Shown here in pieces: positions 19,548-20,373 of a stretch of 64,000 bases of DNA. The stretch lies in NCBI RefSeq assembly GCF_036507355.1, contig NZ_AP027877.1, one strand, 5' to 3'. Source of the stretch: Escherichia coli. Lineage in GTDB: Bacteria > Pseudomonadota > Gammaproteobacteria > Enterobacterales > Enterobacteriaceae. Both the position numbers and the translations under genes were made by a program. A model generated the notes under the pieces. The model did no database searches. It was not told the origin of the DNA and saw only the letters and a list, made by a program, of their open reading frames with translations. The number at the start of each line of letters is the position of its first letter. Within the stretch, counting starts at the first letter, position 1.

Positions 19548-20179
19548 TATTAGCTCCTTCTGATGCCATTCTATTTCAGGAAGGAGTGTCCGTTAAACTC
19601 AGGCTACCTCACTTCTTCCGTCAGTCATGTGGCTATCTATCTGGGTGATAATAACGTTGCAGAAGCGACGGGCGCTGGCGTCCAGATTGTTTCCCTTAAA
19701 AAAGCCATGAAGCACAGTGATAAGCTTTTCGTCTTACGAGTCCCGGACCTTACCCCGCAACAAGCCTCAGATATCGCCGCATTCGCCAATAAAATCAAAG
19801 ATAGCGGTTATAACTATCGCGGCATTGTCGAGTTCATTCCCTTTATGGTGACCCGCCAGATGTGCTCACTAAATCCGTTCTCCGAGGATTTTCGCCAACA
19901 GTGCGTCAGCGGCCTGGCGAAAGCGCAGTTAAGCAGTGTGGGCGAAGGAGACAAAAAGTCGTGGTTTTGTTCGGAATTTGTCACTGATGCATTTGCCAAA
20001 GCCGGGCATCCGCTTACGCTGGCGCAATCGGGCTGGATTAGCCCTGCCGATCTGATGCATATGCGTACTGGCGATGTCTCTGCGTTTAAGCCCGAAACGC
20101 AGTTACAGTATGTTGGGCACCTGAAGCCAGGGATTTATATCAAGGCGGGTCGCTTTGTTGGTTTGACCCGGTGATAAAG

Positions 20180-20300
20180 TAAATGCCTTATCCGCCTTAA
20201 GGTATGAGGGGGGTTGTAGGCATGATAAGACGCGCCAGCGTCGCATCAGGCGTTGAGCACCATTGCCGGATGCGGCGTAAACGCCTTATCCGGCCTACAA
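20180..20300. repeat. cluster of REP (repetitive extragenic palindromic) elements / BIME
   Basis: Imperfect palindromes gccttatccgcc, aggcatgataagacgcgccagcgtcgcatcaggc and tgccggatgcggcgtaaacgccttatccggcctaca between convergent yaeF and nlpE. Confidence 0.7.
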
Positions 20301-20373
20301 AAAACGTGCAAATTCAAAATGTTGAAATATATCCTTCTGGCCTGTTTTGCGTTTGTTTCTGTCTCAAGACGGG

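What the first reader, a model, noticed from the sequence alone, without database searches (positions are those of the whole stretch)
20175..20373. REP/BIME cluster fills the convergent yaeF-nlpE gap
The 199-bp interval between the two convergent stops contains at least three imperfect palindromes of the REP type (GCCGGATGCGGCGTAAACGCCTTATCCGGCCTACA and relatives). Such elements act as terminators, mRNA stabilisers and DNA gyrase / IHF binding sites, and are known targets for some IS families. Here the IS landed in yaeF itself, not in the REP cluster.
Basis: seen in the sequence. Interest (0 to 1): 0.12.

Follow-up and report, generated by a model that had tools for sequence, protein, structure and literature searches.

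The report
Known REP/BIME repeat (K-12 REP16)
The 199-bp gap between the converging genes yaeF and nlpE holds an ordinary, partly decayed cluster of E. coli REP repeats, base-for-base identical to element REP16 of E. coli K-12, which most likely supplies the RNA hairpins that end and protect the two converging transcripts.

Summary
The gap (20175-20373, 199 bp) is 83% REP-derived and 100% identical to E. coli K-12 MG1655 215980-216178, annotated there as REP16.

It contains two intact REPs, not three:
- a z2-type REP at 20216-20252;
- a perfect-consensus y-type REP at 20264-20298, in inverted orientation.

An 11-nt S linker separates them. Around them lie a y half-remnant (20179-20199), an L-type linker with an IHF-like core (20299-20335), and a destroyed z1 REP (20336-20344). 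This makes it an atypical (chimeric) BIME: one BIME-2 unit fused to a broken BIME-1.

The z2-S-y unit scores 92.8 bits against Rfam naRNA4. That shows sequence kinship only.

In K-12 the y hairpin is listed as a bidirectional terminator in a published termination data set. The likeliest role is therefore a 3'-end hairpin for nlpE, and formerly for yaeF.

Across 5,426 E. coli genomes the spacer takes at least six forms. These include a 29-bp REP-less hairpin and an intact BIME-1 carrying IS621 in the z1 REP that this window lacks.

Verdict: already known; low interest.

The parts
20179..20199 (+). Remnant: 3' half of a y-type REP (GTAAATGCCTTATCCGCCTTA). The 5' half is missing and there is no significant hairpin.
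   Evidence: Direct repeat, 86% identical to 20277-20297. blastn-short match to y consensus positions 7-22, E=0.078. Fold z=-0.5.
20200..20215 (.). 16-nt linker (AGGTATGAGGGGGGTT) between the CTAC-side end of the y remnant and the GTAG of z2.
   Evidence: Read from the sequence. Present in the K-12, SUISSE and 1919D3 alleles.
20216..20252 (+). z2-type REP with its GTAG tetranucleotide 5' on the + strand (GTAGGCATGATAAGACGCGCCAGCGTCGCATCAGGCG). It has 2 differences from consensus, and one of them (C->A in GGCCTG) weakens the stem.
   Evidence: 35/36 over consensus positions 1-36, E=1e-13. Hairpin -15.5/-15.1 kcal/mol, z=-2.4/-3.0.
20253..20263 (.). S (short) linker TTGAGCACCAT between the two REP heads.
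   Evidence: The same motif (TTGAGCACCTAAT) links z1 and y at the unrelated yghA-exbD locus.
20264..20298 (-). y-type REP with GTAG 5' on the - strand. On the + strand it reads TGCCGGATGCGGCGTAAACGCCTTATCCGGCCTAC. It matches the consensus perfectly.
   Evidence: 0 mismatches (E=1.5e-15). Identical to the y query used in PMC11208160. Hairpin -21.3/-20.9 kcal/mol, z=-5.3/-4.0. Corresponds to K-12 216053-216093, listed as a bidirectional terminator and as REP16.
20299..20335 (.). L-type (long) BIME-1 linker with an IHF-like core ATTCAAAATGTTG at 20312-20324.
   Evidence: Aligns with the L linker of intact BIME-1 alleles, and the core AATTCAAAAT.TTG is invariant in 6 alleles. The same linker family occurs at the mscS-fbaA and yghA-exbD loci. 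It has 1 mismatch to WATCAANNNNTTR; the background rate is 0.15 such hits per 199 bp.
20336..20344 (+). Remnant of a z1 REP (TCTGGCCTG). GTAG has mutated to TCTG and the next 22 bp (ATAAGCGCAGCGCATCAGGCAA) are deleted.
   Evidence: Alignments with the CX05, LS4, 1919D3, SUISSE and E1V33 alleles.
20345..20373 (.). 29-nt non-REP spacer next to the nlpE stop. It is present in all BIME-bearing alleles and absent from the REP-less allele.
20219..20295 (-). Match to Rfam RF02564 (naRNA4), i.e. one y-S-z2 BIME-2 unit in the nlpE-sense orientation.
   Evidence: 92.8 bits against a gathering score of 59.5, full length 1-77. The + strand scores only 47.3 bits.
18348..19611 (-). Context: IS600 (IS3 family, 1264 bp) inserted in yaeF, with CTT target duplication at 18345-18347 and 19612-19614.
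   Evidence: Break in the K-12 alignment. 99.5-99.8% identity to annotated IS600 copies. Ends read.
20374..21084 (-). Context: nlpE, whose 3' UTR runs into L, y, S and z2.
19612..20174 (+). Context: the 3' part of yaeF downstream of IS600. The gene is disrupted.

Best explanation
Identity (shown). The gap holds a copy of E. coli REP16, an atypical (chimeric) and partly decayed BIME. Its order is: y half-remnant, 16-nt linker, z2 REP, S linker, y REP, L linker with an IHF-like core, destroyed z1 REP. It is therefore one BIME-2-type unit (z2-S-y) that shares its y REP with a BIME-1 (y-L-z1) whose z1 has been lost.

Origin (from established knowledge, not tested here). It belongs to the roughly 600-copy REP family, which is thought to be spread and reshaped by the REP-associated tyrosine transposase TnpA-REP/RAYT.

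Local role (inferred from K-12 data on the identical sequence). When transcribed, the y hairpin (about -21 kcal/mol on either strand), backed by the z2 hairpin, forms the 3'-end structure of the convergent transcripts. It stops or pauses RNA polymerase without a U-tract (partial, possibly Rho-assisted termination) and blocks 3'-to-5' exonucleases. This defines and stabilises the nlpE-operon mRNA and limits antisense read-through. In this genome only the nlpE side matters, because IS600 has inactivated yaeF.

IHF binding at L and gyrase binding at z2-S-y are plausible secondary DNA-level properties and remain untested.
For: Identity:
- 100% identical to the K-12 interval.
- K-12 216053-216093 (= window 20260-20300) is labelled REP16, 'Convergent', and listed among bidirectional terminators detected in log and stationary phase for arfB:nlpE:yaeF:yaeQ (supplement of 10.64898/2026.03.23.713779).

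Anatomy:
- REP consensus matches.
- Family definitions of y, z1, z2, S, L and BIME-1, BIME-2 and atypical BIMEs (PMC3333891).
- The S and L linkers recur at unrelated loci.
- Rfam naRNA4 scores 92.8 bits.

Hairpins:
- Fold statistics.
- Whole-gap folds have z about -4 on both strands.

Function:
- About 60% of E. coli REPs lie between convergent genes. REP325 acts as both a partial Rho-dependent terminator and an mRNA stabiliser. 78 REPs lie within mapped bidirectional terminators.
- The REP-less allele of the same spacer carries a 12-bp-stem hairpin of the same strength (-21.3 kcal/mol, z=-7.4). A strong hairpin between the two stops is therefore the feature the alleles share.
Against: - No intrinsic-terminator signature (hairpin plus U-tract) is found in the gap on either strand.
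- The functional evidence comes from K-12, not from this strain.
- In the preprint, 2-4-hairpin REP fragments showed no Rho dependence, REP effects were context-dependent, and terminal REPs did not lengthen half-lives genome-wide.
- Roughly 10% of E. coli genomes have no REP at this spacer, and deletion variants lacking y or z1 exist. The REPs themselves are therefore dispensable.
- The IHF-like site has one mismatch and is not statistically compelling on its own.
Confidence: 0.85

Rival explanations
1. The cluster is a selfish or neutral genomic repeat in decay. It was deposited and reshaped by TnpA-REP/RAYT and recombination, and has no locally selected role. Any terminator or stabiliser effect is incidental.
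For: - Two of its four REP units are remnants.
- The locus has at least six alleles, including one with no REP and deletion variants.
- BIME number and linker variation between strains is a known feature of the family (PMC3333891).
Against: - The K-12 copy of the y hairpin is a listed bidirectional termination site.
- The REP-less allele supplies an equally strong hairpin of its own. This suggests a hairpin is needed here.
- REP-containing convergent gene pairs are expressed at a higher level genome-wide.
Confidence: 0.35
2. The z2-S-y unit is the gene for a naRNA4-like nucleoid-associated RNA that binds HU and bridges cruciform DNA to condense the chromosome.
For: - Full-length Rfam RF02564 match, 92.8 bits against a gathering score of 59.5, on the nlpE-sense strand.
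- naRNA4 is one Y-Z2 unit of REP325 and condensed DNA with HU in vitro (PMC4550694).
Against: - The Rfam model is in effect a model of any BIME-2 unit, so the score shows repeat-family kinship, not function.
- The 2026 preprint reports that REP325 deletion or overexpression does not change nucleoid volume, and that REP-REP contacts are not seen.
- No promoter-like site lies in or near the gap.
Confidence: 0.05
3. The primary role is at the DNA level. The element is an IHF-binding RIP/RIB-type site (L linker) and/or a DNA gyrase site (the BIME-2 unit) that relieves the positive supercoils built up between the converging transcription units.
For: - The L-linker core AATTCAAAAT.TTG is invariant across six otherwise diverged alleles and is shared with other BIME-1 loci.
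- It is one mismatch from the IHF consensus.
- The literature states that BIME-1 L linkers often carry an IHF site and that REPs bind gyrase.
- The position between convergent genes is where positive supercoils accumulate (established knowledge).
Against: - The canonical BIME-1 is broken here, because z1 is destroyed.
- Only one z2-y unit is present, whereas gyrase-active BIME-2 elements are typically tandem (my recollection of the literature).
- No binding data were available to me.
Confidence: 0.2
4. The gap encodes a small protein: the mechanical ORFs at 20204-20410 (68 aa) or 20253-20468 (71 aa).
For: Both ORFs appear in the six-frame list.
Against: - They are built from REP sequence, run antisense into nlpE, and have no promoter-like site.
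- The region is deleted or rearranged in many strains.
Confidence: 0.01

Closest known systems
REP16 of E. coli K-12 MG1655 (nlpE-yaeF intergenic region, NC_000913.3 215980-216178)
   Same: Identical over the whole 199-bp gap and about 25-45 bp on each side. Same neighbouring genes, same orientation.
   Different: Nothing within the element. Here yaeF upstream is split by IS600, and the flanking coding sequence is 4-11% diverged from K-12.
BIME-2 / Rfam RF02564 naRNA4 (one Y-Z2 unit of REP325)
   Same: [quoted passage not shown] Full-length model match at 92.8 bits.
   Different: A single unit rather than a tandem array (REP325 has six). z2 carries a stem-weakening substitution. No evidence of HU binding or of a separate transcript.
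BIME-1 / RIP (RIB) elements: y-L-z1 with an IHF site
   Same: The y REP and L linker with the conserved IHF-like core are present. Other E. coli strains carry an intact y-L-z1 at this locus.
   Different: z1 is destroyed in this allele (GTAG->TCTG plus a 22-bp deletion), and L carries several substitutions near the z1 side.
IS621 (IS110 family, bridge-RNA recombinase) REP target sites
   Same: In several E. coli strains the 1279-bp IS621 sits in the z1 REP of this same BIME, at GTAG|IS|AG-GCCTGAT. That is the published target ATCAGGCCTAC with a CT core.
   Different: The window has no IS621 and no exact target. y reads ATCCGGCCTAC, z2 reads ATCATGCCTAC, and z1 is gone. The IS present here, IS600, is in yaeF.
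REPIN/RAYT (TnpA-REP) systems
   Same: Two inverted REPs with a conserved GTAG and a stem mismatch are the substrate described for TnpA-REP. z2 and y can pair into one long hairpin.
   Different: No RAYT gene lies next to the element, and mobility was not tested.

Membership tests
REP / palindromic unit, y type | Match to the ~35-nt y consensus, including the GTAG/CTAC tetranucleotide | tested here: met
   35/35 at 20264-20298, CTAC at 20295-20298. Identical to the published y query.
REP / palindromic unit, y type | Imperfect palindrome that folds into a stable hairpin with an internal mismatch | tested here: met
   -21.3 / -20.9 kcal/mol, z=-5.3 / -4.0, with an internal mismatch in the stem.
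REP / palindromic unit, z2 type | Match to the ~37-nt z2 consensus with a 5' GTAG | tested here: met
   35/36 over consensus positions 1-36 at 20216-20251, and 2 differences over the 37-nt unit ending at 20252. GTAG at 20216-20219. The hairpin is weaker (z=-2.4 / -3.0).
REP family in general | Extragenic location and high copy number in the genome | tested here: met
   It lies between two stop codons.
BIME-2 | z2 and y in inverse orientation separated by the short S linker | tested here: met
   11-nt S linker TTGAGCACCAT. The same linker occurs at another locus. Rfam naRNA4 scores 92.8 bits.
BIME-2 | Occurs as multiple tandem copies | tested here: not met
   One intact z2-y unit plus a y half-remnant only.
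BIME-1 (RIP/RIB) | y and z1 in inverse orientation separated by the long L linker | tested here: not met
   y and L are present, but z1 is reduced to TCTGGCCTG. The feature is met in other alleles of the same locus.
BIME-1 (RIP/RIB) | IHF binding to the L linker | not testable with these tools
   Sequence only: ATTCAAAATGTTG is 1 mismatch from WATCAANNNNTTR, and the core is invariant across alleles.
Atypical (chimeric) BIME | A combination of BIME-1 and BIME-2 motifs (y, z1, z2, L, S) in one element | tested here: met
   z2-S-y-L-(z1 remnant) in the window. The intact z2-S-y-L-z1 form exists in strain 1919D3. Definition.
Rfam RF02564 naRNA4 | Covariance-model score at or above the gathering threshold | tested here: met
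   92.8 bits against 59.5 on the - strand.
Rfam RF02564 naRNA4 | Expressed RNA that binds HU and is associated with the nucleoid | not testable with these tools
   No expression or binding data for this locus. The proposed function is itself disputed.
Intrinsic (Rho-independent) terminator | GC-rich hairpin followed directly by a U-tract | tested here: not met
   No terminator-like site lies within the gap on either strand. The only hit is inside yaeF at 20141-20157.

The most novel reading that the evidence does not exclude
The damaged z1 REP of the K-12/window allele (four clustered substitutions turning GCTGTAG into CCTTCTG, plus a 22-bp deletion starting 5 bp further on) sits at the point where IS621 is inserted in other strains' copies of this BIME. 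It could be a scar of an imperfect IS621 (bridge recombinase) excision or of a REP-directed cleavage event. Its effect would be to remove the only exact IS621 target from the locus. The at least six natural alleles of this one spacer would then record repeat gain, IS targeting and target loss.
Probability: 0.05. Interest if true: 0.3.

Novelty: already known. Interest (0 to 1): 0.05.

Why it matters
It matters little for discovery. The element is a textbook REP/BIME, already annotated in K-12 as REP16, and its sequence here is unchanged.

Two modest uses follow:
- The nlpE 3' end in this genome can be annotated by transfer from K-12.
- The spacer has a convenient natural allelic series across E. 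coli: no REP, BIME-1, composite, two deletion forms, and an IS621-interrupted form. Measuring nlpE and yaeF expression across these natural or swapped alleles could test what REPs between convergent genes actually do, which recent work still treats as open.

Tried and rejected
- K-12 RefSeq annotation. I expected REP repeat_region features, but none are listed in this copy. The name REP16 came from a preprint supplement instead.
- Outgroup search to decide whether the REP-less or the BIME allele is ancestral. The single genome-contig scan, using a back-translated nlpE 3' pattern, returned one chance hit and Escherichia sp. E1V33. E1V33 carries the BIME-1 allele but is only 2-6% diverged from the window, so it is not a real outgroup. 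The pattern also missed alleles with a K->Q change at the nlpE C-terminus. Polarity is unresolved.
- A 50-nt L-linker BLAST against all E. coli genomes was too short to count family members, and a mismatch search for L in 50 kb of K-12 found nothing. Family status of L and S was shown instead from two unrelated IS621-bearing loci.
- A fuzzy-regex REP scan of the whole window timed out. It was replaced by blastn-short.
- Small-ORF reading of the gap: rejected. The ORFs are made of REP sequence, are antisense to nlpE, and the region is variable between strains.
- Chance palindromes: rejected.
- Canonical intrinsic terminator: not found.
- Allele frequencies are rough. They were derived from BLAST coverage classes and evenly spaced sample rows, not from a per-genome parse.

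Full report
**Observation**

The quoted sequence is present at 20265-20299.

- A degenerate REP pattern hits 20216-20251 with one mismatch and never hits in 100 shuffles.
- blastn-short with the y, z1 and z2 consensus sequences finds only two significant matches in all 64 kb. These are y at 20264-20298 (35/35, E=1.5e-15) and z2 at 20216-20251 (35/36, E=1e-13).
- Each folds into the expected imperfect hairpin: y at -21.3/-20.9 kcal/mol (z=-5.3/-4.0) and z2 at -15.5/-15.1 kcal/mol (z=-2.4/-3.0).
- The third 'palindrome' is not one. 20179-20199 is the 3' half of a y REP, 18/21 identical to 20277-20297, and folds no better than shuffles (z=-0.5).

The correct count is two intact REPs plus remnants.

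**Anatomy**

From left to right:

| Coordinates | Feature |
|---|---|
| 20179-20199 | y half-remnant |
| 20200-20215 | 16-nt linker |
| 20216-20252 | z2 REP, GTAG 5' on the + strand |
| 20253-20263 | 11-nt S linker TTGAGCACCAT |
| 20264-20298 | y REP, GTAG 5' on the - strand |
| 20299-20335 | L-type linker; core ATTCAAAATGTTG (20312-20324) is one mismatch from the IHF consensus |
| 20336-20344 | z1 remnant TCTGGCCTG |
| 20345-20373 | 29 nt of non-REP spacer |

REP-derived sequence (20179-20344) makes up 166 of the 199 bp. By the published definitions (BIME-1 = y + z1 with a long L linker that often carries an IHF site; BIME-2 = y + z2 with a short S linker, in tandem copies; atypical BIMEs = chimeras of the two; PMC3333891), this is an atypical BIME. 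It is one BIME-2-type unit sharing its y with a BIME-1 that has lost z1.

The S and L linkers are family motifs, not local sequence. The same S (TTGAGCACCTAAT) and the same L core (TGc.AATTCAA.AT.TTGCA) occur at the yghA-exbD and mscS-fbaA loci of other strains.

**Match to known elements**

The interval plus about 25-45 bp on each side is 100% identical to E. coli K-12 MG1655. The K-12 RefSeq copy available here lists no REP features. However, the supplement of a 2026 preprint labels K-12 216053-216093 as REP16, 'Convergent', with neighbours arfB:nlpE:yaeF:yaeQ, in a table of bidirectional terminators seen in log and stationary phase. That K-12 interval maps onto window 20260-20300, the y hairpin.

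Rfam's naRNA4 model (RF02564), built from one Y-Z2 unit of REP325, matches 20219-20295 on the nlpE-sense strand at 92.8 bits against a gathering score of 59.5. This confirms the BIME-2 unit. It says nothing specific about HU binding, because any y-S-z2 unit would score this way.

**The IS claim**

K-12 aligns to the window up to 18347 and again from 19610. The intervening 1264 bp (18348-19611) are 99.5-99.8% identical to annotated IS600 copies, start with TGAGG and end with CCTCA, and are flanked by a CTT duplication. None of the best-ranked matches among 5,426 complete E. coli genomes extends across the IS600-yaeF junctions. The source may therefore be a Shigella-like lineage; this is inference.

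**How it most likely works**

Shown:
- Two strong hairpins lie between two convergent stops.
- No hairpin-plus-U-tract terminator exists in the gap.
- The sequence is identical to a K-12 site listed as a bidirectional terminator.

From the literature:
- About 60% of E. coli REPs lie between convergent genes.
- 78 REPs coincide with mapped bidirectional terminators.

Inferred: the y hairpin, supported by z2, sets and protects the 3' end of the nlpE-operon mRNA and limits read-through into antisense yaeF. The yaeF side is moot here because IS600 has broken that gene.

A supporting detail is that the REP-less allele of this spacer in other E. coli strains is only 29 bp but consists of a 12-bp-stem hairpin (AAAGCCGGAG-AATG-CTCCGGCTTT). 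Its -21.3 kcal/mol (z=-7.4) equals the strength of the y REP. A strong hairpin is what the alleles have in common.

Caveats:
- REP effects are context-dependent, and short REP fragments showed no Rho dependence.
- REPs are dispensable at this locus.
- IHF and gyrase binding are plausible but untested.
- The naRNA4/HU nucleoid model is disputed by the same 2026 preprint.

**Variation at the locus**

The counts below are rough. They come from BLAST coverage classes and evenly spaced sample rows across 5,426 E. coli genomes.

| Allele | Spacer | Approximate number of genomes |
|---|---|---|
| K-12/window type | 199 bp | about 1,800-1,900 |
| Intact BIME-1, y-L-z1 | 154-155 bp | about 1,900 |
| REP-less hairpin | 29 bp | about 550-800 |
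| Complete composite, remnant-z2-S-y-L-z1 (strain 1919D3) | 220 bp | at most 127, together with the 173-bp form |
| 48-bp deletion removing y (SUISSEKPC3NDM5) | 173 bp | included in the row above |
| BIME-1 interrupted by IS621 | - | several hundred |

I inspected the IS621 allele in four strains. IS621 (1279 bp) sits between GTAG and AG-GCCTGAT of the z1 REP. That is the published natural target ATCAGGCCTAC with a CT core (PMC11208160).

The window allele has no exact IS621 target. y reads ATCCGGCCTAC, z2 reads ATCATGCCTAC, and z1 is gone.

Whether the REP-less or the BIME state is ancestral is unresolved. The one outgroup scan returned only Escherichia sp. E1V33, which has the BIME-1 allele but is just 2-6% diverged.

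**Mosaic flanks**

Against K-12 the window has no mismatch from 20130 to 20399. It has 28 mismatches in the preceding 520 bp of yaeF and 8 in the following 70 bp of nlpE. The last 45 nt of yaeF are the K-12/SUISSE form, 4-8 differences from the other alleles. The BIME-bearing patch therefore has a different history from its flanks, as expected from recombination at a polymorphic locus. I did not pursue this further.

**Verdict**

This is a real but ordinary and already described repeat element (K-12 REP16), unchanged in this genome. Interest is low. The only mildly useful by-product is the natural allelic series, including IS621 occupancy of the z1 REP that this allele has lost.

Noticed in passing
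window 20130-20399 versus its flanks 19610-20129 and 20400-20470: The BIME and about 25-45 bp on each side are 100% identical to K-12. The adjacent yaeF 3' part has 28 mismatches in 520 bp and the nlpE 3' end has 8 in 70 bp. The last 45 nt of yaeF exist in sharply diverged forms linked to the BIME allele. This indicates a recombination mosaic around the repeat.
   Followed up: partly
L006, L007, L010, L011 (yaeF-nlpE spacer of other E. coli strains); L016 (mscS-fbaA); L017 (yghA-exbD): IS621 (1279 bp, bridge-RNA recombinase IS) is inserted in the z1 REP of a y-L-z1 BIME-1 at GTAG|IS|AG-GCCTGAT, at this same spacer and at two unrelated loci. This matches the published target ATCAGGCCTAC. The four yaeF-nlpE cases share a frameshifted yaeF and the same transposase protein accession, and three of them (L007, L010, L011) also share ProS and NlpE accessions; nlpE was not in the stretch retrieved for the fourth (1916D18). 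They probably descend from one insertion.
   Followed up: partly
L004 372-406 (E. coli SW070910, REP-less allele): The whole yaeF-nlpE spacer is 29 bp and consists of a 12-bp-stem hairpin flanked by A and T runs (-21.3 kcal/mol, z=-7.4). It is as strong as the y REP hairpin that occupies the gap in the window.
   Followed up: partly
L015 (strain 1919D3) and L012 (strain SUISSEKPC3NDM5): Two rare alleles bracket the window's form. One is a 220-bp composite with both y and z1 intact. The other is a 173-bp form in which a 48-bp deletion removes y but keeps z1. The window/K-12 form keeps y but has lost z1.
   Followed up: yes
window 22685-22719: A single degenerate REP-like hairpin (GCCGGATGCGACGCTTAATGCGTCATATCCGGC) lies in the convergent rof-tilS gap. 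It corresponds to K-12 REP15, which is listed as a bidirectional terminator in the same supplement.
   Followed up: partly
window 18348-19611: IS600 (1264 bp, CTT duplication) splits yaeF. None of the best-ranked matches among the 5,426 complete E. coli genomes searched extends across the IS600-yaeF junctions. Together with the Rfam CssrA hit, this hints at a Shigella-like source.
   Followed up: partly
window 24534-26675 versus L014: Escherichia sp. E1V33 has about 590 bp where the window has about 2.2 kb carrying ldcC (constitutive lysine decarboxylase). That genome therefore appears to lack ldcC at this position.
   Followed up: no
window 6090-11318, 45560-45669, 46508-46594, 55417-55462: Rfam gathering-level hits elsewhere in the window: a complete rRNA operon with tRNAs (minus strand), CssrA, t44 and the HtrA 5' UTR thermometer. 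All are expected for this chromosomal region.
   Followed up: no
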